A DNA stretch of 39,188 nucleotides from Thermoproteota archaeon (GTDB lineage Archaea; Thermoproteota; Methanomethylicia; Methanomethylicales; JAGHCH01): positions 1-39,188 of the forward strand of contig JAGHCH010000075.1 of NCBI GenBank assembly GCA_021160575.1. Direction: 5' to 3'. The notes beneath the pieces are model-generated. The model had not been told where the DNA came from and did no database searches. It was given only the letters and a program-made list of their open reading frames with translations. The position numbers and the translations under genes were made by a program. Of this stretch, positions 1,181 to 11,465 are shown in pieces (the stretch's first letter is position 1; each line of letters starts with the position of its first letter).

Positions 1181-1810
1181 TTGCAGCTTAAGGTGAGCTT
1201 GTTGAGCAAACTCCCCAAAAGATGGGCTCCTTCAGAAGAGCTCCCAGAAACTCCTACACCACTGAAGCCCAAAATTGAAAAGGCAATCAAGCTGTTACAA
1301 CTCCAAATCAAGAGGCTTGACGCTCGCCGAGAAGAACTCATGCTGAAAGACAAAGCCCTCTTCAACACCATAGTCAAGTACTACAGTGAAGGCGACACTG
1401 GACATGCCACCCTCTACGCCAACGAACTGGCAGAGCTGCGCAGAATCATCAATGCCTCCCTCAGAGCCAAGCTGGCATTAGAGCAGATTCTTGAGAGGCT
1501 CACCACCATCAAAGAGCTAGGAGACGCCATCATTGCGGTATCACAAGCCTCTCAGATTATAAAAGGCGTGAAGCCATCCATCACCTCCCTCCTCCCAGAA
1601 GCTGAGGAGGAGCTAAGCAAAGTTGATGAGCTGCTCTCCGGAGTTCTAACAGCTGCAACACAGGTTGGGGTTCCTGAAGTTGCAAGCTACATGGTCTCTG
1701 AAAGCGCAGAGCAAATACTCCAAGAAGCCGCTCGAGTAGCGGAGAAAATCCTCAAGGAGAAACTTCCTGAACTTCCTGGAAGCCAGCTTGAGAGTACCTC
1801 TGATCAGTGA
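1181..1810 (+). CDS. ESCRT-III / Snf7-family protein (CdvB-like paralogue A, no winged-helix extension)
   Basis: 209 aa and all-helical. The core KIEKAIKLLQLQIKRLDARREELMLKDKALFNTIVKYYSEGDTGHATLYANELAELRR matches the archaeal CdvB/Snf7 helical-hairpin pattern. The C-terminus has an acidic tail and a proline motif KLPELPGS. The start may instead be GTG 1193 (MSLLSKLPKRW). TATA gttatatact lies at 1143-1152. Confidence 0.75.
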   Translation: MQLKVSLLSKLPKRWAPSEELPETPTPLKPKIEKAIKLLQLQIKRLDARREELMLKDKALFNTIVKYYSEGDTGHATLYANELAELRRIINASLRAKLALEQILERLTTIKELGDAIIAVSQASQIIKGVKPSITSLLPEAEEELSKVDELLSGVLTAATQVGVPEVASYMVSESAEQILQEAARVAEKILKEKLPELPGSQLESTSDQ

Positions 1811-1873: not shown

Positions 1874-2476
1874 GTGCGGGGCGCTAGAACTAGGGCATTC
1901 CACATTCCTCTCGTCGCCCTCTTCATAGCCATGGTGGGTATCCTTGAGCTATTGCCCAAGCCTAGAGCACCTTGGGGTATGTCCATAGATTTCGTCGCAG
2001 TTCCTGTGCTCGTAGCCTTCTTCCTCCTTGGAACACGATATGCGTTGGCAGTCTCCGTAGGCATGCTAGTTATCCTCTCCTTCATAGGTGGAGGTGCCTA
2101 CATAGGAGCTACCATGAAGTTCACGGCTACACTCCCCATGTTCCTCATGCCAGCTTTTCTTCTCTACACCCCCCTCTTCAGTAGCTCCAAGTCGCCTAGA
2201 GCATATGCCCATCTTCCAAAGTACTTAGCAGCGGTGGCTCTAGCCATTATGGTGCGCTGCTTAGCCATGATAGCCCTCAACTACTACTGGGCAGTGCCCC
2301 TCTTCCTCGACATGCCCATTGAGGAGGCCATTGAAACGTACTTCTTCGGAAGCATTTGGGGCTTCGTCTGGTTTGTCTCCTCCATGAACATAGTCCAAGG
2401 AATAGTAGACGCAGCCGCTAGCTGGCTCATAGTCTTCGGCTCAAAGCTTCACGAAAGGCTACCCAAGCTTAGCTGA
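1874..2476 (+). CDS. Polytopic membrane protein (about 6 TM; weak resemblance to ECF-transporter S components)
   Basis: 200 aa with six hydrophobic segments (IPLVALFIAMVGILELL, IDFVAVPVLVAFFLLG, YALAVSVGMLVILSFIGG and others). The function assignment is tentative. GTG start. Confidence 0.55.
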   Translation: MRGARTRAFHIPLVALFIAMVGILELLPKPRAPWGMSIDFVAVPVLVAFFLLGTRYALAVSVGMLVILSFIGGGAYIGATMKFTATLPMFLMPAFLLYTPLFSSSKSPRAYAHLPKYLAAVALAIMVRCLAMIALNYYWAVPLFLDMPIEEAIETYFFGSIWGFVWFVSSMNIVQGIVDAAASWLIVFGSKLHERLPKLS

Positions 2477-2884
2477 CTCCTTCAATTCATTAAAAAGCCT
2501 GCTGCAGAGCTTATGAGCCTTAACAGCCCACTCCACAGCTTTTTCAGCCAATTTACGGTCAACAACTTCATCTGGAGAGAGCATCTCCAGCTCATTACCA
2601 TACATGCTAACTTCCCTCATACCCGTCAACTTCTTCGACGCCTCCCTCAACTCTGGAAGCTCCCGCCGAAACCAGCTTGGAAAGCGCTCCTCTACTTCGC
2701 CTAGAACATCTGATACGTCATGCTTCCTCGGATACTCCACTCCCACAACTCTCAGCGCAGCCTTTAAAGACAGCTCAACACACTCCTGAGCAAGCCTCAG
2801 CGCGTACGCATTCAACCCATCATCCAAGGCTTCCCTTGCATGGCGAAGCCTCGCGTTAGCTTGCTTCAAGTAGGCTTCAGCCAC
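2459..2884 (-). CDS. HEPN domain protein (toxin-like partner of the adjacent MNT)
   Basis: 141 aa and helical. LSLKAALRVVGVEYPRKHDVSDVL resembles the conserved HEPN (PF05168-type) segment. Its GTG start overlaps the stop of the upstream nucleotidyltransferase by 8 nt (GTGGCTGA). Confidence 0.8.
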   Translation of the reverse strand: MAEAYLKQANARLRHAREALDDGLNAYALRLAQECVELSLKAALRVVGVEYPRKHDVSDVLGEVEERFPSWFRRELPELREASKKLTGMREVSMYGNELEMLSPDEVVDRKLAEKAVEWAVKAHKLCSRLFNELKESAKLG

Positions 2885-3635
2885 CTTGAGAAGCTTCAGA
2901 GCCCGCCACCTCCTCGGCTTTAAAGCCGGGTCTTAGATCCCAATACCATGCATTCTTGCCGATAGCCACCCTCCTAGCACCTATCTCCGCCAAGTATCCC
3001 CTCAGCCTTGAAAGAGTTCTTTCAAGAAAGCCATTTCTATCGTGTATAATAATCCCATCAACCGTCACATCAAGAAGTATCAGCGGAAACCTCTCCACCT
3101 CTCCTCTCCTCAGAGGGAGAATGCTCAACCCCGTGTGCACTTCATACCTACGAAGCCTCTTCAGCTCATCAGAAACCATTTCCTCAATCTCACACAGCGC
3201 TTCAACCCTTGAAGCTAGGCTTCCACTAAAGCTGTCTGAAACTGCTAGGATGTCGAGATCGCTATCCAGCCGAGCCGTTCCACGGGCAATCGAACCATAA
3301 ATGCACAGAGCTTCAACTTCAAAATCCCTAATCAAGTGAATCGCTACATCACTGATCAACTGCAAATATCTCTCCTGCTTGATTTTGTCGAGGTTCTTGA
3401 TAGCTCCAGAGGCCAAGTACAACAAGCTCTCCGGCTTGAGCACTCTATACAGCCTAGGCCTAGCTCTACTGTGATAGAAGAGGACTCTAGCAGCGTGAAG
3501 TCTACTGAAAGCTATGCTCAACTTCTCTCTACTCTGCCCAAGAAGCTTCATTGCCTCAGCAAAGGTGAAGGGCTCAGCTCCAAAGTTCACGTAAACTCTA
3601 GCGTAAAGCTCTCCAAGCCAGCGCGGCAGCCACAT
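2877..3635 (-). CDS. Minimal nucleotidyltransferase (MNT) with an N-terminal wHTH-like extension
   Basis: 252 aa. The Pol-beta-type NTase motif is IYGSIARGTARLDSDLDILAV (G-S-x-x-R-G ... D-x-D). The N-terminal region of about 100 aa (FTFAEAMKLLGQSREKLSIAFSRLHAARVLF) looks DNA-binding. The gene forms an operon with HEPN. Confidence 0.85.
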   Translation of the reverse strand: MWLPRWLGELYARVYVNFGAEPFTFAEAMKLLGQSREKLSIAFSRLHAARVLFYHSRARPRLYRVLKPESLLYLASGAIKNLDKIKQERYLQLISDVAIHLIRDFEVEALCIYGSIARGTARLDSDLDILAVSDSFSGSLASRVEALCEIEEMVSDELKRLRRYEVHTGLSILPLRRGEVERFPLILLDVTVDGIIIHDRNGFLERTLSRLRGYLAEIGARRVAIGKNAWYWDLRPGFKAEEVAGSEASQGG

Positions 3636-3641
3636 AACTTT

Positions 3642-3669
3642 AACTATTTATTAAGGCAAACAAATAGTT
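3642..3669. promoter_or_regulatory. Inverted repeat AACTATTT-N12-AAATAGTT in the divergent MNT / phosphoesterase promoter region
   Basis: Perfect 8-nt arms at 3642-3649 and 3662-3669, read directly. It lies 7 nt upstream of the MNT ATG (3635) and 31 nt upstream of ATG 3700, embedded in A/T-rich TATA-like sequence. Confidence 0.4.
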
Positions 3670-3699
3670 TACCTAAATCTTCAAGGAGCCTCCTTCGAG

Positions 3700-4449
3700 A
3701 TGCGCAGAAAAATCGTTGCCCTCGCAGCAGCCCTAGCACTTCTATTCTTCTCGGTATACAGCTTACCCTTCCTCTATGATCGCATCCATACCTACACTAT
3801 TTCCATCAAGCCGGGCAGCGTGATCGTCGTGGTTTCCGACCTTCACATAGAGAACAATCCAAGAAATCTCTCTGCTATCGGAGCTTTAGTGAAGAGCACT
3901 AATGCCTCTCTCCTCGTAATAAACGGGGATCTCTTCGATGATCAATACGGCAGAGCCCTTGATCCCAATCTCCTAGTTGATGCCTTCAAGAGAATGAATC
4001 TCTCCACTACGCAGCATGTTCAAGTGATCTATGTGCTGGCCCTTTACAGCCATGACCCCTTCATTGATTCCCCTACAGCCACCTTAAATGCGAGCAGCTT
4101 TCAAGTGCTTGCGGTGAAGGGTGCTCTCCTCCTAGAGGCTCCATCGGAGCGGATTATCCTCCTACATGGTGACTACGCAATTCGATTTGGCTTCATTGCT
4201 GGGGTTCTCGACATGGCTTCTCACGGCTTAGCTCTCGGGAGGATGGCTAGAATGGTTCTTCATGTTGAACCTGATTGCTGGGTAGCTGTGGGGCACTCTC
4301 ACATTCCCGGAATTAGCTATGAAGACCGCGTAGCCAATACTGGCACTTGGCTAAATCGTTTCATAGATAGCTCTGACACCGCCCTAGTGGTCAAAGTTGA
4401 TGAGCTGGGCAAGTTGCACCTTAAATTGGTTAGCATGAAGGAGGCTTAG
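3700..4449 (+). CDS. Membrane-anchored calcineurin-like metallophosphoesterase
   Basis: 249 aa with an N-terminal hydrophobic anchor IVALAAALALLFFSVYSL. Phosphoesterase motifs are VVVSDLHI, VINGDLFDD, LLHGDY and VGHSHIPG. Confidence 0.75.
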   Translation: MRRKIVALAAALALLFFSVYSLPFLYDRIHTYTISIKPGSVIVVVSDLHIENNPRNLSAIGALVKSTNASLLVINGDLFDDQYGRALDPNLLVDAFKRMNLSTTQHVQVIYVLALYSHDPFIDSPTATLNASSFQVLAVKGALLLEAPSERIILLHGDYAIRFGFIAGVLDMASHGLALGRMARMVLHVEPDCWVAVGHSHIPGISYEDRVANTGTWLNRFIDSSDTALVVKVDELGKLHLKLVSMKEA

Positions 4450-4508
4450 CTGTAGGCAACGCTATAACATGCGGCTGCCATAGATTCTTGACTAGGAGCT
4501 GGTGTTAC

Positions 4509-6473
4509 ATGAGCTATCGCTTAAGCGGTAAGGGGCCAGTCTTCGAGGGCAGCATCACCTCAGTTAAGGTTCCTCGAAGAGGCTACAAGTGGTATGGCGT
4601 AGTCAAAGTTAGAACTGAACATCTAGGCGAAGTTTCCCTTCTCATGACAGGCGTGATTGCGCAATGGCTTCTACCCGGTGAGAAAGTTAAGATCACTCTC
4701 CTCGAGGAGCCCAAGGTAGTGGACTCCTCCAAAATCCTAGGCTTCAACGATTACCTCCTCCATAGGCTCTGGGGCTTGGACTGGGTTCCAGTATGGCCTC
4801 CTTTTCAAGAGGAGTTCACTCTTCCTAGGAAAGATCCCTTGACTGGGAGAACTCTCTATCAATACCATGTAGTGGCTAGGGAAGCCCTAACTGAGCATGA
4901 TTATGAGGAGGTTGTTGGATTAGAGCAGTATCATTATGCTTCCAAGGAGGAGCTGGTAGCCATCTGGCGCTGCCTCCTCTGCGGCGAATACGCTGAAGCC
5001 AATGCTCAGCCGGAGTGCCCCCGCTGCAAAACCCCCATGAGAATCCAAGAGATCAGAGGCTCCCTCCCATCTTCAAGGTTCCTGGTCCTAGAGCTCAAGA
5101 GCAGACAGCCCTACGAGCCCAAAGTAATCGCCTACGTCAGAGTGGATACCCCCATTCCGTTGATGTCGCGTAGACTTACTCCCCAAGGAGATAGAATTGA
5201 GCACATGATACGTGAAAAGGTGTTTCCTAAGGAGTGGTTCCACCCAACCTATTGGCCTCAAGTCTATCAAGAGTGGCAGAAGGTGGTATCCCGCTACAGA
5301 GACCTCGCCAAGCTCTATGGCAGATCGCTCGCCATGGCGATGGTGGGCGAAGAGATCGCTGAAGAAGCCTTGAAGCGAGCCAATACAGCTGCCGCTAGGA
5401 TAGCGAGAGTCGTTGTGCACCCCGACTATAGAGGAGACGGCTTCGGAGTCCTAGCAGTAACCGCTGCTCTGAAGTGGATTAAAGAACGCCGAATTCCCGA
5501 GATGCGGAAGCCAAAGCATGTGGTCGAAACCATCGCCCAAATGGCTAGATACAACCCCTTCTTCGAGAAAGCTGGCTTCAAGTACATGTGGGAGACTAGA
5601 AGCGGCCGCCCAGTGCTCATGTATCCTCTCACCCCCGAAGCTGAGGAGAAGATCGGCAGCTTCCTCTCCAAGGATCCCTACGCCAGCAAGCATGGCGGGA
5701 AGCTCTACCGCTCCCACTTCGGCGAAGTGGAGCCCCTCTCCGCCCCCATAAGGCTCAAAGGGTTAACCAAGATGTACTCGAGCACCCTTGATGTGCAGAG
5801 GCTTCCAGAGGATTTACAAGAGGTGCTTAGAGCCTTCGGCGTCGAGAGGCGTGTTGTAGAGCGCTACGTGGTGAGAGACGCTAACCTAGAGATAGCTCCC
5901 CGCGAGATAGCAGTGGTGGTAGGGGCTTCTGGCGCTGGCAAAACTACGCTTCTCCGCATGATAGTCGGAGGGGCTCTAAAGCTTGAGGATCCCGGATATG
6001 TACCTTCAAGCGGCAAGGTGGAGGTTCCCGAAAACGCCAGGCTAGCCTACCTTTTCCCTGGAGAGCACGAGCCCAGCTTCGGCGATGAACCTCTCTTGGA
6101 ACATGTTAAAAGGAAATGCGGCGACATCGCCTTAGCCGTAGAGATCCTCAACACCGTGGGACTCTCAGATGCCGTCTTCTACAGAGCAAGATTCCAAGAA
6201 CTCTCCACAGGGCAGAAGGAGAGAGCCAAGCTCGCAAGCCTCCTCGCAGAGAAGCCAAACCTATTAGTGATCGACGAATTCACAGCCCACCTCGACGCCT
6301 TAACCGGTAGGAGGGTTGCCAGAAAGCTCGGAGAAGTGGCCAAGAGAGCTGGAATAACTCTCATTGTAGCCACCAACAGACCGGAGATCATCGATGCTCT
6401 CTCGCCAACAAAAATGATCTACGTGGGCTACGGAGCCTTACACGCTGCGGCTCCTCAGCTCCCCTCCCGCTAG
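4509..6473 (+). CDS. Multidomain fusion: N-terminal beta-rich domain, zinc ribbon, GNAT acetyltransferase and a soluble ABC-type ATPase (COG2401-type architecture)
   Basis: The ORF opens at TTG 4488, with ATG at 4509. The zinc ribbon is CLLCGEYAEANAQPECPRCKT. GNAT motif A is RVVVHPDYRGDGFGVLAVTAAL. ABC motifs are Walker A GASGAGKTT, signature LSTGQKERAKL, Walker B LLVIDEF and D-loop AHLD. The H-loop position reads IVATNRPE, with Asn where His is usual. There are no TM segments. Confidence 0.85.
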   Translation: MSYRLSGKGPVFEGSITSVKVPRRGYKWYGVVKVRTEHLGEVSLLMTGVIAQWLLPGEKVKITLLEEPKVVDSSKILGFNDYLLHRLWGLDWVPVWPPFQEEFTLPRKDPLTGRTLYQYHVVAREALTEHDYEEVVGLEQYHYASKEELVAIWRCLLCGEYAEANAQPECPRCKTPMRIQEIRGSLPSSRFLVLELKSRQPYEPKVIAYVRVDTPIPLMSRRLTPQGDRIEHMIREKVFPKEWFHPTYWPQVYQEWQKVVSRYRDLAKLYGRSLAMAMVGEEIAEEALKRANTAAARIARVVVHPDYRGDGFGVLAVTAALKWIKERRIPEMRKPKHVVETIAQMARYNPFFEKAGFKYMWETRSGRPVLMYPLTPEAEEKIGSFLSKDPYASKHGGKLYRSHFGEVEPLSAPIRLKGLTKMYSSTLDVQRLPEDLQEVLRAFGVERRVVERYVVRDANLEIAPREIAVVVGASGAGKTTLLRMIVGGALKLEDPGYVPSSGKVEVPENARLAYLFPGEHEPSFGDEPLLEHVKRKCGDIALAVEILNTVGLSDAVFYRARFQELSTGQKERAKLASLLAEKPNLLVIDEFTAHLDALTGRRVARKLGEVAKRAGITLIVATNRPEIIDALSPTKMIYVGYGALHAAAPQLPSR

Positions 6474-6972
6474 CCCTACACAAGCCATCGGAGAGCCCAA
6501 CAACATAGAGGTAAAGGTCATACCATCTCCCAGTGCTCTCTTCATCAAGAACTGTAAACTTCTTCACTGGAATCCATCCCGGAATCTTGAAGTCAACTGA
6601 AACAACCCTAGCACCTCTCGGAAGCTGGCAGCTCAACTTAGGTGCCAAGAGGCGATTCAAGCTGGTGAGCTGATACAAGGTAACTACATCCGCCTTCGGC
6701 AGCTTCATCGACAGGATGTCTCCATGAAGAACCTTCACAAACTCTGCCACACGACTCTTGAAGGCATTAAAGAGCGCTTTCTCTACTAAGTCTCTGCGAA
6801 TCTCCACGCCAACAGCTCTGGCGCCGAAATCCCTTGCGGCAGCCACCAAGAATCTACCGTCACCGCATCCCAGATCGCAGACAAGCTCCCCTGGCTTCAC
6901 ATCTGCTACTCTGAGAGCCTCCCTCACCACCCTCCAAGGAGTAGGCACAAAGGGGGAGACTCTCCCAGCCAT
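6388..6972 (-). CDS. Class I SAM-dependent methyltransferase, aKMT-like (crenarchaeal protein lysine methyltransferase family)
   Basis: 194 aa with FVPTPWRVV...VCDLGCGDGRFLVAAA (motif I)...VGVEI...VVTLYQL...PKL...GARVVSVDFKIPGW...LYLYVVG. This layout matches what I recall of Sulfolobus aKMT. The 3' end overlaps the convergent GNAT-ABC gene by 86 nt. Confidence 0.75.
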   Translation of the reverse strand: MAGRVSPFVPTPWRVVREALRVADVKPGELVCDLGCGDGRFLVAAARDFGARAVGVEIRRDLVEKALFNAFKSRVAEFVKVLHGDILSMKLPKADVVTLYQLTSLNRLLAPKLSCQLPRGARVVSVDFKIPGWIPVKKFTVLDEESTGRWYDLYLYVVGLSDGLCRASGRGAEEPQRVRLRSPRRSFLLAREHR

Positions 6973-7072
6973 ACCAAATTCTCCAGCTAGAAAGGCAGCT
7001 ATTTAAACTCCACTGAAGGGGAAAGTATGGGAGTCGAAAGAGCTAATGGGAGGTTGTGGATGAGTGACGGCA

Positions 7073-7390
7073 ATGGTGGAATTCACCGTCCTTCCATTAG
7101 GCACCCCTAGTACCAGTGCGAGGCAGTATGTGGCTAAAGCACTTAAAGCTCTCAAGGATGCAGGCTACTCTTATCAGCTCACTCCTATGGGTACTATTGT
7201 GGAAGCTACCACCATCGAGGAGGCTCTCAAAGCTGTAACCGTAGCGCACAACTCCCTCTTTGAAGAAGGGGTCCAAAGGGTGGTCACAGTAATCAAGGTG
7301 GATGATAGGCGGGATAAGCCGGGCACGCGTGCACAAGGAAAAGTGGAAGCAGTCCTCTCAGAGCTCAGAAAACTTGAAGGAAAAGATTAG
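7073..7390 (+). CDS. MTH1187/YkoF-family (UPF0045/DUF77) small ligand-binding protein
   Basis: VEFTVLPLGTPSTSARQYVAKALKALKDAGYSYQLTPMGTIVEA is the characteristic family opening. The frame opens at GTG 7064 and ATG is at 7073. An SD-like gggagg lies at 7048-7053. Confidence 0.8.
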   Translation: MVEFTVLPLGTPSTSARQYVAKALKALKDAGYSYQLTPMGTIVEATTIEEALKAVTVAHNSLFEEGVQRVVTVIKVDDRRDKPGTRAQGKVEAVLSELRKLEGKD

Positions 7391-9563: not shown

Positions 9564-10860
9564 GAGCAGAGAGCTGCTGATCTCTGCATTGAAGGACGCT
9601 GCTAGACGCACAGCTCTAGCTAGAGCCGTCGAAGCATACACCTCTGCTAAGTATAGCGTCCTTCCCAGTATCCCCGACTTAGACGAGCTCTCCCAGCAGG
9701 TTAGAGAGGTCAAGGAAAAGGCTGTTCAAATGCTTGAGGAGCTTGCCAAGCAGGCGAAGGAATCCATCGAAAGAGCGAGCGGGCACGCCTACATAGCAAG
9801 GACAGCTGAAGAAGCCCTCAAGATAGCCGAGCAAATCATAGGCTCTGGAAAAACCATAGTCAAATCCAAGTCTCTAACGGCTGAAGAAATTAAACTTAGG
9901 AAATTCCTTGAAGCCAAGGGTAACCGAGTCATTGAAACTGACTTGGGAGAATTCATTGTTCAGCTAAGAGGTGAAACGCCTACTCACATTGTTAACCCTG
10001 CAATTCACGTCCCTCGAGAAGCTGTAGCTGAACTCTTCTCCAAGATGGTTGGACGGCGGCTTCCTTCCGATATCCCCCATCTAGTGGCTATGGCCAGAGA
10101 GCTACTCAGAGAGGAGTTCTTTAGAGCAGAGGTAGGGGTCAGCGGCGCCAATGTGATAGCCGCCGACACGGGCACCATATTCATCCTTGAGAATGAAGGT
10201 AACGCTCGCTTTGTCACTAACGCTCCGCCAGTCCACGTCTGCATAGCTGGCTTCGAGAAGGTGGTCCCATCCATACGCGACGCTTTCAACGTGGTGCGCC
10301 TACTACCTCCCTATGCCACCGGAATAATGATGGCTGGCTACGTCTCCATGATCACCGGTCCAAGTAAAACAGCCGACATAGAGAAGACGGTTGCCTACGG
10401 GGTGCACGGGCCGAAGGAGCTGCATGTCATTCTACTAGACAACGGCAGGATCGAAATGGCTAAGCACCCAGTGCTCAGGGAAGCCCTTTACTGCATCCGC
10501 TGCGGGGGCTGCCTCTACGAGTGCCCCATCTACAGAATATTAGACGGCTTCTTTGGAGCCAACTACTTCGCTGGTATAGGGGTTCCATGGGTTATGTACA
10601 CGCGAAGTCCCCAAGAAGCAGCCTTCTTCGCCTACGCCTGCACCACCTGCGGCAGATGCAGGGAGCTATGCCCATTGAGAATCGACATCCCCTCCATAGT
10701 AGAGGCTTGCAGGGCTATTCTTAGAGAGAAGGGCTTCACCGTTCCAAGGCATATGCAACTAGCTGAAAACTTCTTAAAAGAGCTTAACCCCTACGGAGAG
10801 CCTAAGAATAAAAGAGCCAGCTGGCTTCAGCAAAGTGAAAGTATGCGAAAGGGCTTCTAG
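9547..10860 (+). CDS. lutB: LutB-like iron-sulfur protein (LUD/DUF162 domain plus 2x[4Fe-4S])
   Basis: 437 aa. The LUD core is VSGANVIAADTGTIFILENEGNARF. Ferredoxin motifs are CIRCGGCLYECP and CTTCGRCRELCP. Confidence 0.85.
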   Translation: MSWFDESRELLISALKDAARRTALARAVEAYTSAKYSVLPSIPDLDELSQQVREVKEKAVQMLEELAKQAKESIERASGHAYIARTAEEALKIAEQIIGSGKTIVKSKSLTAEEIKLRKFLEAKGNRVIETDLGEFIVQLRGETPTHIVNPAIHVPREAVAELFSKMVGRRLPSDIPHLVAMARELLREEFFRAEVGVSGANVIAADTGTIFILENEGNARFVTNAPPVHVCIAGFEKVVPSIRDAFNVVRLLPPYATGIMMAGYVSMITGPSKTADIEKTVAYGVHGPKELHVILLDNGRIEMAKHPVLREALYCIRCGGCLYECPIYRILDGFFGANYFAGIGVPWVMYTRSPQEAAFFAYACTTCGRCRELCPLRIDIPSIVEACRAILREKGFTVPRHMQLAENFLKELNPYGEPKNKRASWLQQSESMRKGF

Positions 10861-11465
10861 ATGCGGACGCCCTCTTGCTCCTCCACTGGTATCGGCGGTA
10901 GCTTGGATTTCAGCTGTTGCTCTGCTACGGCAGCGGCCTCCTCTAAGATCTTCCTTGCTTCCTCGCTCACATAGCCAGGCTCTGGCGTTACACCAGTGGT
11001 TTGCGTCGCCTCCACCAGCAGATCTGTGAATAGATCACTAAGATCAGAGAACGTCTTGTCAGCTTCAGGAGTGAGAGCTGCAACTCCAGCTCTGATGTTC
11101 TTCACGACGTCCAGTGCTGGGGCCACTATACTGACGATGTCACCGAAGTCCCTAATGGTAGTTAGTCTCATGGCTATTTGCTTGAAGGCTAACATGGCTA
11201 GGTATACGTTCCTGTGAAGTTTTCTCACCTCAGCTAATTCAGTGGCGTAAATCCTAGCCCTCGCCATATCTCCAGAGCTGTAGTATTTGACTACCCTTTC
11301 AAAGAGCTCTCTGTCCTTTATTGCTAGTCTAGCTGAAGCTTGCTCAAAAAGAGCTATTTGCCTGTTAATGGTTCGAATAGCTTGCTCTAATCTAGGTTTA
11401 AACGGCGCAGACACGCTACCTCCTCCACTCTCTCTGGGCTCCCATCTTTCAACAAATTTACTCAT
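10857..11465 (-). CDS. ESCRT-III / Snf7-family protein (CdvB-like paralogue B)
   Basis: 202 aa. PRLEQAIRTINRQIALFEQASARLAIKDRELFERVVKYYSSGDMARARIYATELAEVRK aligns residue for residue with paralogue A. The C-terminal proline motif is KLPPIPVEE. Its stop shares the tetranucleotide CTAG with the lutB stop. Confidence 0.75.
   Translation of the reverse strand: MSKFVERWEPRESGGGSVSAPFKPRLEQAIRTINRQIALFEQASARLAIKDRELFERVVKYYSSGDMARARIYATELAEVRKLHRNVYLAMLAFKQIAMRLTTIRDFGDIVSIVAPALDVVKNIRAGVAALTPEADKTFSDLSDLFTDLLVEATQTTGVTPEPGYVSEEARKILEEAAAVAEQQLKSKLPPIPVEEQEGVRI

What the first reader, a model, noticed from the sequence alone, without database searches (positions are those of the whole stretch)
3700..6473. 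Membrane metallophosphoesterase followed by a zinc-ribbon / GNAT / ABC-ATPase fusion with no transporter partner
- **Architecture.** The 654-aa protein combines four parts.
  - About 160 aa of beta-rich N-terminal sequence of unknown fold.
  - A CxxC...CxxC zinc ribbon.
  - A GNAT acetyltransferase (RGDGFG motif A).
  - A complete soluble ABC ATPase.
- **H-loop.** The H-loop His appears replaced by Asn (IVATNRPE), so the ATPase may act as a slow switch.
- **Known status.** The architecture matches the COG2401 class (an ABC ATPase fused to an acetyltransferase). To my knowledge its function is unknown.
- **Mechanistic analogy.** An NTPase coupled to a GNAT recalls the RNA cytidine acetyltransferase TmcA/NAT10, although that enzyme uses a different ATPase fold. 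GNAT toxins that acetylate aminoacyl-tRNA are another parallel. ABC ATPases are also the sensor modules of several phage-defence systems (Gabija, PARIS, Septu).
- **Context.** It sits 38-59 nt downstream of a co-directional anchored phosphoesterase and next to a HEPN-MNT pair.
- **Hypotheses.** It could be an ATP-gated macromolecule acetyltransferase, either for RNA or protein modification or as a defence effector.
Basis: partly seen in the sequence, partly recalled or inferred. Interest (0 to 1): 0.6.

Follow-up and report, generated by a model that had tools for sequence, protein, structure and literature searches.

The report
Thermophile acetyltransferase fused to ABC ATPase
This archaeal gene encodes a soluble, highly conserved but untested enzyme of heat-loving microbes that joins a nucleic-acid-binding domain, an acetyltransferase and an ABC-type ATPase, and it most likely puts an ATP-dependent acetyl mark on RNA (less likely DNA) bases; the neighbouring phosphoesterase is unrelated to it.

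Summary
**Observation.** The 654-aa ORF (4509-6473, +) is real. All GNAT and ABC motifs are intact.

**Refined anatomy.**
- Residues 10-110 form an OB fold.
- The GNAT starts near residue 115. The zinc ribbon and a helical hairpin are inserted inside it.
- A single ABC domain follows. Its H-loop is Asn here; across the family it is His in 54 and Asn in 47 of 101 sequences.

**Context.** The phosphoesterase, MNT and HEPN neighbours have no homologue in about 170 related loci (74 archaeal-genome, 80 metagenome, plus others). No neighbour is conserved.

**Distribution.**
- The long form was seen only in organisms named as thermophiles, in both domains (Thermoproteota, Thermococcus, Archaeoglobi, Thermus, Thermomicrobium, Armatimonadota).
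- It is patchy and sometimes broken.
- This copy sits in a methanogenic (mcrA-bearing) Thermoproteota genome but nests among Desulfurococcales sequences, so it was probably acquired horizontally (AU p 1e-5).

**Partner.** In basal branches the gene is fused to, or adjacent to, one ASCH subtype in 35 of 80 metagenome loci. A preprint reports that ASCH proteins remove acetyl groups from tRNA cytidine. This genome lacks that partner, but its canonical TmcA/Nat10 gene overlaps an ASCH gene.

**Reading.** An ATP-driven nucleobase acetyltransferase, with RNA favoured over DNA.

**Prior knowledge.** GNAT-ABC fusions were already predicted in the literature to acylate DNA bases. This scan has also noted the family in several other genomes.

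The parts
4509..6473 (+). Whole gene: 654-aa OB / GNAT(Zn ribbon) / ABC ATPase protein
   Evidence: ORF. Start fixed by alignment with homologues. 61-70% identical full-length homologues. AlphaFold2 model with pLDDT 89 and pTM 0.85.
4536..4838 (+). N-terminal OB-fold domain (residues 10-110)
   Evidence: Domain model pLDDT 88. All best structural matches are OB folds (SSB, RPA, Teb1, Pot1, PriB, AsnRS/AspRS, TiaS, Trbp111/CsaA); best Z 7.0. It is the least conserved part, with mean 39% identity to relatives against 62-64% for the GNAT and ABC parts.
4845..4958 (+). GNAT strand 1 and helix 1 (residues 113-150), with invariant E125, E139, Q140, H142, Y143
   Evidence: Secondary structure of the model. 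Invariant columns.
4959..5063 (+). Zinc ribbon inserted in the GNAT (residues 151-185; Cys155/158/170/173 at 4971-5027)
   Evidence: Sequence CLLCGEYAEANAQPECPRC. Ligand conservation. Position between GNAT helix 1 and strand 2 in the model.
5064..5633 (+). GNAT core (residues 186-375), with a helical insertion at 234-290 and acetyl-CoA motif A RGDGFG at 5430-5447
   Evidence: Pfam Acetyltransf_1 and Acetyltransf_7. R308, G311 and G313 invariant in 101 sequences. Net charge +13. Nearest predicted structures are TmcA/NAT10 and DruA/Mom GNATs.
5634..5747 (+). Linker (residues 376-413) with conserved HGGKLY
   Evidence: Model. Conserved H395, G397, L399.
5748..6449 (+). Single ABC nucleotide-binding domain: Walker A 5922-5945, LSTGQ 6201-6215, Walker B 6261-6278, D-loop 6285-6296, H-loop Asn623 6375-6377
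   Evidence: Pfam ABC_tran E 4e-16. Motifs checked by translation. Motif invariance and H/N alternation at the H-loop.
3700..4449 (+). Upstream membrane-anchored metallophosphoesterase: a neighbour only, not part of a conserved module
   Evidence: Pfam Metallophos 23.5 bits. N-terminal hydrophobic segment. No homologue near the gene in about 170 related loci.

Best explanation
The gene encodes a stand-alone, soluble, ATP-dependent nucleobase acetyltransferase that most likely acts on RNA (tRNA or rRNA; an N4-acetylcytidine-type mark).

**Shown by the analysis**
- An OB fold, a GNAT with intact acetyl-CoA motif that carries an inserted zinc ribbon, and one complete ABC ATPase domain.
- Restriction, among named hits, to thermophiles of both domains.
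- Recurrent fusion or adjacency with one ASCH subtype in basal branches of the family.

**Inferred**
- The OB fold and zinc ribbon hold the nucleic acid.
- ATP binding closes two ABC domains into a head-to-tail dimer. This positions or remodels the substrate so that the GNAT can reach a base, playing the role the helicase module plays in TmcA/NAT10.
- Where present, the ASCH partner removes the mark or proof-reads it.

**This copy**
- It belongs to the crown clade that has lost the dedicated ASCH partner.
- It was probably acquired by horizontal transfer from a Desulfurococcales-like archaeon.
For: **Anatomy**
- Confident model.
- OB fold.
- Invariant catalytic motifs in 101 sequences.
- GNAT core net charge +13.

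**Structural neighbours of the GNAT (residues 112-400)**
- Six TmcA/NAT10 clusters: TM by query 0.51-0.54, about 180 residues aligned.
- One DruA/Mom cluster. All of these are nucleobase-modifying GNATs.
- PF13718 hits are weak, at E up to 1 in 19 of 28 members.

**ASCH link**
- P0124 carries a C-terminal ASCH domain (PF04266, E 2e-6).
- The T. roseum homologue has a convergent, overlapping ASCH gene.
- The same subtype is adjacent in three archaeal lineages.
- Of 80 metagenome loci, 13 are fused and 22 have an ASCH gene within 400 nt, in four different arrangements.
- In 401 Thermoproteota genomes the subtype was found strongly only in three genomes of three families, and all three carry the gene.
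- All 38 distinct partner sequences keep GxKx[WFY]E[ILV]R.

**Literature**
- ASCH proteins deacetylate ac4C in tRNA (bioRxiv 10.64898/2026.02.27.708502) and as a free nucleoside (PMC6972931).

**Parallel in this genome**
- The canonical TmcA/Nat10 gene overlaps a YqfB-type ASCH gene.

**Distribution**
- Thermophiles of both domains.
- 48-70% identity across them, which fits a conserved cellular target.
Against: - No experiment exists for any member.
- Sequence-level similarity to TmcA is only at the generic GNAT level: PF13718 15.3 bits against a cut-off of 24.6; hhalign probability 1.4%.
- OB-fold matches are below Z 8 and include many ssDNA binders.
- The published prediction for GNAT-ABC fusions is DNA, not RNA (PMC7824862).
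- Reverse-order relatives lie in provirus packaging modules.
- This genome and the whole crown clade lack the dedicated ASCH partner.
- F-bearing genomes already have TmcA/Nat10.
- The gene is patchy and repeatedly broken, so it is dispensable.
- The OB domain, the presumed specificity module, is the least conserved part.
Confidence: 0.42

Rival explanations
1. It is a DNA nucleobase acyl-modification enzyme (for example N4-acetyl-dC or an N6-acyl-dA), as predicted in the literature for GNAT-ABC fusions. Here it would be an orphan, chromosomal DNA marker.
For: [quoted passage not shown]
- A DruA/Mom cluster is among the nearest structures.
- The best OB matches include SSB, RPA, Pot1 and Teb1.
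- Reverse-order ABC-GNAT relatives sit next to the large terminase, or inside the portal/capsid block, in 14 of 20 archaeal loci.
- (PIN)-GNAT-EVE operons with ASCH were read as DNA-base acetylation (PMC7641849).
Against: - No restriction, nuclease or other conflict gene is conserved next to the long form in about 170 loci.
- No relative in IMG/VR viral contigs.
- TmcA/NAT10 clusters outnumber Mom-type clusters among the structural neighbours.
- The preprint's ASCH proteins acted on tRNA.
Confidence: 0.22
2. It is an ATP-regulated protein acetyltransferase, for example of chromatin or ribosomal proteins in thermophiles.
For: - Most characterised GNATs matched by Pfam Acetyltransf_1/7 act on proteins or small molecules.
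- In this window the gene converges on an archaeal protein-lysine methyltransferase-like gene.
- An aKMT-like gene lies within about 5 kb in a few Pyrodictiaceae loci.
Against: - The aKMT gene is adjacent only here.
- The ASCH fusion or adjacency, the OB fold and the TmcA/Mom-like GNAT neighbours all point to nucleic acid.
- No protein-substrate partner is conserved.
Confidence: 0.12
3. It acetylates a free nucleoside, nucleotide or other small molecule, and ASCH recycles the product (YqfB-like salvage).
For: - YqfB-type ASCH enzymes hydrolyse free N4-acetylcytidine (PMC6972931).
- Maf-like house-cleaning genes lie directly downstream in one lineage (7 loci).
Against: - An OB fold, a zinc ribbon and a dimerising ABC ATPase are unusual equipment for a small-molecule GNAT.
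- The Maf neighbour is confined to one lineage.
Confidence: 0.08
4. It is a toxin or defence effector whose acetylation is reversed by ASCH as an enzymatic antidote (DarTG-like logic).
For: - Patchy distribution, horizontal transfer and repeated pseudogenes.
- A writer-eraser gene pair in basal branches.
- A HEPN-MNT pair lies nearby in this window and, 7 kb away, in T. roseum.
Against: - Most carriers, including this genome, have the gene without the partner.
- 13 loci fuse writer and eraser in one chain.
- Very high conservation across domains.
- No mobile-element or island context.
- PADLOC gives only generic ABC matches.
Confidence: 0.07
5. It is the ATPase of a transporter, for example the energiser for the ECF S-component gene 2 kb upstream.
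For: - An ECF substrate-component gene lies at 1874-2476.
- The ABC domain is of the transporter/ABC-F sequence type.
Against: - No permease or ECF gene lies near the homologues.
- The position where the Q-loop Gln is expected has an invariant Glu; this assignment is by position only.
- The GNAT, OB and zinc-ribbon modules have no transport rationale.
Confidence: 0.03

Closest known systems
COG2401-type proteins ('ABC-type ATPase with predicted acetyltransferase domain' in JGI; 'GNAT family N-acetyltransferase' in NCBI)
   Same: Same family: full-length homologues at 61-70% identity carry these names. They share the GNAT plus single ABC domain and have no membrane part.
   Different: Nothing separates it from the long-form subfamily. 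The family itself is experimentally uncharacterised. Broader relatives have other N-termini or the reverse domain order.
TmcA / NAT10 / Kre33 ATP-dependent RNA cytidine N4-acetyltransferases
   Same: - A GNAT fused to an ATPase plus nucleic-acid-binding modules.
- TmcA/NAT10 clusters are the nearest named structural neighbours of the GNAT part.
- In this genome TmcA is itself coupled to an ASCH gene, as the long form is in other lineages.
   Different: - The ATPase is an ABC domain, not a RecD-like helicase.
- There is no TmcA_N domain.
- PF13718 scores below its cut-off; hhalign is weak.
- Carriers also have a canonical TmcA.
GNAT + ABC ATPase DNA-nucleobase acyl-modification system predicted by Iyer, Zhang, Burroughs and Aravind 2013 (as summarised in PMC7824862)
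   Same: The same pairing of a GNAT with an ABC ATPase, with a nucleobase as the predicted target.
   Different: - That prediction concerns phage and conflict contexts and DNA.
- The long form here is a solitary chromosomal gene of thermophiles with an OB fold and zinc ribbon.
- The original paper was not available to read.
(PIN)-GNAT-EVE operons with ASCH (Bell et al. 2020, PMC7641849)
   Same: A GNAT genetically linked to an ASCH protein and often to an ATPase.
   Different: Those systems have EVE or PIN domains, an AAA_17 ATPase and restriction-modification or prophage contexts. None of these is seen here.
Soluble ABC ATPases acting on nucleic acid or ribosomes (ABC-F such as EttA and PoxtA; ABCE1)
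   Same: Best solved-structure sequence matches of the ABC part. They are soluble and have no permease.
   Different: Those proteins have two ABC domains in one chain and no GNAT. The matches are at the general ABC level (E 1e-20 to 1e-13).

Membership tests
COG2401-type GNAT-ABC fusion | GNAT domain with acetyl-CoA motif A (R/Q-x-x-G-x-G/A) | tested here: met
   Pfam Acetyltransf_1 25.7 bits against a cut-off of 20.7. RGDGFG at 5430-5447. R308, G311 and G313 invariant.
COG2401-type GNAT-ABC fusion | One ABC nucleotide-binding domain in the same chain, with Walker A, signature and Walker B | tested here: met
   ABC_tran E 4e-16. Motifs verified and invariant.
COG2401-type GNAT-ABC fusion | Full-length similarity to proteins so named | tested here: met
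   61-70% identity over 95-99% of the length to proteins that JGI names 'ABC-type ATPase with predicted acetyltransferase domain'.
TmcA/NAT10 | TmcA_N (PF08351) and RecD-like helicase ATPase (PF05127) | tested here: not met
   No such Pfam match. The ATPase is ABC_tran.
TmcA/NAT10 | GNAT_acetyltr_2 (PF13718) above its cut-off | tested here: not met
   15.3 bits against a cut-off of 24.6. hhalign against this genome's TmcA gives probability 1.4%. Only fold-level resemblance is seen.
TmcA/NAT10 | ATP-dependent formation of ac4C in RNA | not testable with these tools
   Needs biochemistry.
ABC transporter energising subunit | Conserved linkage to permease or substrate-binding genes | tested here: not met
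   No conserved neighbour in 74 archaeal and 80 metagenome loci. The ECF S-component gene occurs only in this window.
GNAT toxin of type II toxin-antitoxin pairs (TacT/AtaT/ItaT) | Small single-domain GNAT with an adjacent RHH/DUF1778 antitoxin | tested here: not met
   A 654-aa multidomain protein. No such neighbour was found.
Defence ABC ATPases (GajA, AriA, PtuA) | Full-length match and a cognate partner gene (GajB, AriB, PtuB) | tested here: not met
   PADLOC matches cover only the C-terminal ABC motifs (residues about 560-640), and no partner is present.
Mom/DruA GNATs | PF14236 match | tested here: inconclusive
   No Pfam match. One DruA/Mom cluster is among the structural neighbours, with TM 0.51 by query and 0.73 by that row.

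The most novel reading that the evidence does not exclude
The long-form GNAT-ABC protein is a second RNA acetyltransferase of thermophiles, independent of Nat10. It would write an acetyl mark that Nat10 does not make: an orphan acetylated nucleoside, or ac4C at extra sites. It would use an ATP-closed ABC dimer as its engine. Together with its ASCH partner it would form a dedicated writer-eraser circuit for RNA acetylation in prokaryotes.
Probability: 0.2. Interest if true: 0.85.

Novelty: new member of a known kind. Interest (0 to 1): 0.5.

Why it matters
- RNA acetylation has one known writer family, TmcA/NAT10, and it is tied to growth at high temperature.
- A second ATP-driven writer with a different engine, confined to thermophiles and genetically linked to a proposed eraser, would change how RNA (or DNA) acetylation is understood in prokaryotes.
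- The family is conserved at 48-70% identity across archaea and bacteria, yet no member has been assayed.
- The present analysis provides a concrete substrate class, a partner protein and candidate mutants to test.

Tried and rejected
Neighbourhoods were rebuilt from fetched loci with my own ORF calls instead.
- **Solved structures.** A sequence search for residues 1-430 found only motif-A-level hits (E 0.26).
- **hhalign** of the N-terminal/GNAT alignment against this genome's TmcA: probability 1.4%.
- **IMG/VR viral contigs:** no relative.
- **Longer fused forms** above 1145 aa: none found, which is weak evidence.
- **PADLOC:** only generic ABC matches.
- **RNA evidence.**
  - One metatranscriptome run has small low-depth contigs on 5422-5654 and 5931-6173.
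  - Nothing bridges 4449-4509.
  - Expression and co-transcription with the phosphoesterase therefore stay open.
- **Model geometry.** The model's coordinates cannot be inspected with these tools, so whether the GNAT site faces the ABC dimer interface could not be answered.
- **N6-acetyladenosine idea.** This nucleoside is known from Methanopyrus kandleri tRNA with no known enzyme (PMC6313347). Whether the family writes it could not be tested, because no handle on that genome was available.
- **Literature.** No paper mentions COG2401 by name. Iyer et al. 2013 is not held.
- **Local context.**
  - Rejected as part of a module: the phosphoesterase, HEPN-MNT and ECF S-component genes, which were not found near any homologue.
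  - The aKMT-like gene is not a module partner either: it is adjacent only in this window and lies within about 5 kb in a few Pyrodictiaceae loci.
Full report
**1. What is there**

The window holds an ORF at 4488/4509-6473 on the + strand. Homologues begin at the ATG at 4509, which gives 654 aa.

- Pfam finds ABC_tran at residues 456-593 (E 4e-16) and weak GNAT models (Acetyltransf_1 at 25.7 bits, above its cut-off).
- By translation the motifs lie at these coordinates:
  - RGDGFG 5430-5447
  - Walker A GASGAGKT 5922-5945
  - LSTGQ 6201-6215
  - Walker B LLVIDE 6261-6278
  - D-loop AHLD 6285-6296
  - H-loop ATNRP 6369-6383
- In an alignment of 101 non-redundant family members the following are invariant:
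  - ABC side: Walker A Lys, signature S/G/Q, Walker B Asp-Glu, D-loop Asp.
  - GNAT side: R308, G311, G313.
  - Neither domain is degenerate.
- The H-loop is Asn623 here. Family-wide it is His in 54 and Asn in 47 sequences, with several switches. Asn is tolerated; a 'slow switch' is not shown.
- The protein has no transmembrane segment.

**2. Refined anatomy**

An AlphaFold2 model built on 28 homologues is confident (pLDDT 89, pTM 0.85). It changes the domain map.

- Residues 11-108 are all-beta.
- The GNAT begins at about residue 115, with strand 115-125 and helix 129-142.
- The zinc ribbon (151-185) and a helical hairpin (234-290) are insertions within the GNAT.
- A 40-residue linker leads to the ABC domain (414-647).
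- A separate model of residues 1-112 (pLDDT 88) matches only OB folds.
  - The matches are SSB, RPA, Teb1, Pot1, PriB, AsnRS/AspRS anticodon-binding domains, TiaS and Trbp111/CsaA.
  - The best Z is 7.0, so the fold is clear but no specific relative emerges.
- The OB part is the least conserved (39% mean identity to relatives, against 62-64% for the GNAT and ABC parts). The GNAT core is strongly basic, with net charge +13.

**3. Relatives and distribution**

- Full-length homologues at 61-70% identity occur in Pyrolobus, Pyrodictium, Staphylothermus, Stetteria and many Desulfurococcales MAGs.
- At 50% clustering the strict family is small, about seven full-length representatives. It is surrounded by a larger set of GNAT-ABC proteins with other N-termini or the reverse domain order.
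- In 401 sampled Thermoproteota genomes the long form was found in about 24.
  - None was found in 32 genomes of the window's own order searched with this query.
  - Three copies contain stop codons.
- A scan of one genome per species found relatives in 422 species; the best 80 are all Thermoproteota MAGs.
- Named hits elsewhere are all thermophiles:
  - Thermomicrobium roseum, at 48% identity.
  - Thermococcus, Archaeoglobi, Thermus scotoductus and Armatimonadota.
- Fragmented copies occur in Hyperthermus butylicus, Pyrodictium occultum and Thermococcus stetteri.
- Its protein nevertheless nests among Desulfurococcales/Pyrodictiaceae sequences, with SH-like support 96-98.
- An AU test rejects grouping it with the two same-class sequences (delta lnL 210, p 1e-5). 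Horizontal acquisition is the simplest reading.

**4. Context**

- No neighbour is conserved. The commonest flanking family occurs in 10 of 74 archaeal loci, all in one lineage.
- The phosphoesterase, MNT, HEPN and ECF S-component genes of this window have no homologue in about 170 related loci.
- The 59-nt gap before 4509 contains a TATA-like CTATAA and a GGAG/GGTG stretch. This is compatible with an own promoter but proves nothing.
- Metatranscriptome contigs are too sparse to decide.

**5. The informative link: ASCH**

I found this link before consulting earlier notes of the scan.

- The T. roseum homologue has a convergent, overlapping ASCH gene.
- A 765-aa relative (P0124) carries a C-terminal ASCH domain.
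- The same ASCH subtype is adjacent to the gene in three archaeal lineages.
- Among 80 metagenome loci of the more basal clades:
  - 13 are fusions.
  - 22 have the ASCH gene within 400 nt, as convergent-downstream, co-directional-upstream or divergent-upstream arrangements.
- In the Thermoproteota sample the subtype was found strongly in only three genomes, from three families. All three carry the gene.
- All 38 distinct partner sequences keep the GxKx[WFY]E[ILV]R octapeptide.
- On an outgroup-rooted tree the ASCH-linked clades are basal. The crown clade that contains the window's gene lacks the partner. The rooting rests on two long branches.
- A 2026 preprint reports that 19 ASCH proteins of both motif types remove ac4C from tRNA (10.64898/2026.02.27.708502). 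YqfB hydrolyses free ac4C (PMC6972931).
- In this very genome the canonical TmcA/Nat10 gene (789 aa) overlaps a 112-aa YqfB-type ASCH gene by 32 nt. ASCH thus pairs with the proven RNA acetyltransferase family in the way it pairs with the long form elsewhere.

**6. Structure-based leads for the GNAT**

- In the ESM Atlas the nearest models to residues 112-400 are, in order: the protein's own family, two standalone bacterial GNAT clusters, six TmcA/NAT10 clusters (TM by query 0.51-0.54, about 180 residues aligned) and one DruA/Mom cluster.
- These are leads, not membership. PF13718 scores 15.3 bits against a cut-off of 24.6, and hhalign against this genome's TmcA is weak.

**7. Interpretation**

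The OB fold, the zinc ribbon, the basic GNAT with nucleobase-modifying structural neighbours, the fused ATPase and the ASCH link together favour an ATP-dependent nucleobase acetyltransferase.

I favour RNA over DNA for four reasons:
- The long form never travels with a nuclease or restriction gene.
- It is conserved at 48-70% identity across domains.
- It is confined to thermophiles.
- ASCH activity has been reported on tRNA.

DNA remains a serious rival for two reasons:
- The literature already predicted that a GNAT coupled to an ABC ATPase acylates a DNA nucleobase (PMC7824862, citing Iyer et al. 2013).
- Reverse-order ABC-GNAT relatives lie beside the large terminase, or inside the portal-capsid block, in 14 of 20 archaeal loci.

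The mechanism is inferred from general ABC knowledge, not shown: ATP-driven head-to-tail ABC dimerisation that positions the substrate for the GNAT.

Carriers also keep TmcA/Nat10, so the enzyme adds to that system and does not replace it.

**8. Novelty**

- The family is catalogued, and the kind has been predicted computationally.
- This scan has noted the same family and the ASCH link in several other genomes.
- This window adds a horizontally acquired, partner-less copy in a methanogenic Thermoproteota genome, and a refined domain map.
- The biology is untested and worth an experiment, but this instance is a new member of a known kind.

Noticed in passing
Own genome contig C73, locus L129 91-2460 (+) and 2429-2767 (+): The canonical TmcA/Nat10 homologue (789 aa) overlaps by 32 nt a 112-aa ASCH gene with a YqfB-type SGRKTSTIR motif. 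This looks like a writer-eraser operon for RNA cytidine acetylation. In five other genomes checked, TmcA and ASCH genes are not adjacent.
   Followed up: partly
Loci L216-L235 (20 Thermoproteota genomes): Reverse-order ABC-GNAT proteins of 473-530 aa are relatives of the window protein. In 11 of 20 loci they lie directly downstream of a large terminase gene. In 3 more they lie between portal and protease/capsid genes. PHROGs holds matching viral families (phrog_293, phrog_11143, phrog_886).
   Followed up: partly
window 6388-6972 (-): An archaeal protein-lysine methyltransferase-like gene (NCBIfam prot_lys_mtase_Arch, E 1e-32) converges on the GNAT-ABC gene with an 86-nt coding overlap. Similar genes lie 3-5 kb from the homologue in a few Pyrodictiaceae loci.
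   Followed up: partly
window 1874-2476 (+): A solitary ECF-transporter substrate-component gene (PF12822, E 8e-9) has no EcfA or EcfT gene beside it. It is not found near any homologue of the GNAT-ABC gene.
   Followed up: partly
Locus L132 (Thermomicrobium roseum megaplasmid NC_011961), 1593-2328: A nucleotidyltransferase plus HEPN pair lies about 7 kb upstream of the bacterial homologue, echoing the HEPN-MNT pair in this window. It is probably coincidence, as such pairs are annotated in both this window and that record.
   Followed up: no
window 1181-1810 (+) and 10857-11465 (-): Two Snf7/ESCRT-III-like paralogues lie about 9 kb apart. The Pfam Snf7 match is weak (E 0.0065 for the first).
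   Followed up: no
window 2400-7100 in public runs X1-X20: Near-identical DNA occurs in marine sediment and hydrothermal-vent metagenomes from several studies. One metatranscriptome from the same sample as a DNA run holds short low-depth pieces of several genes in the stretch.
   Followed up: partly
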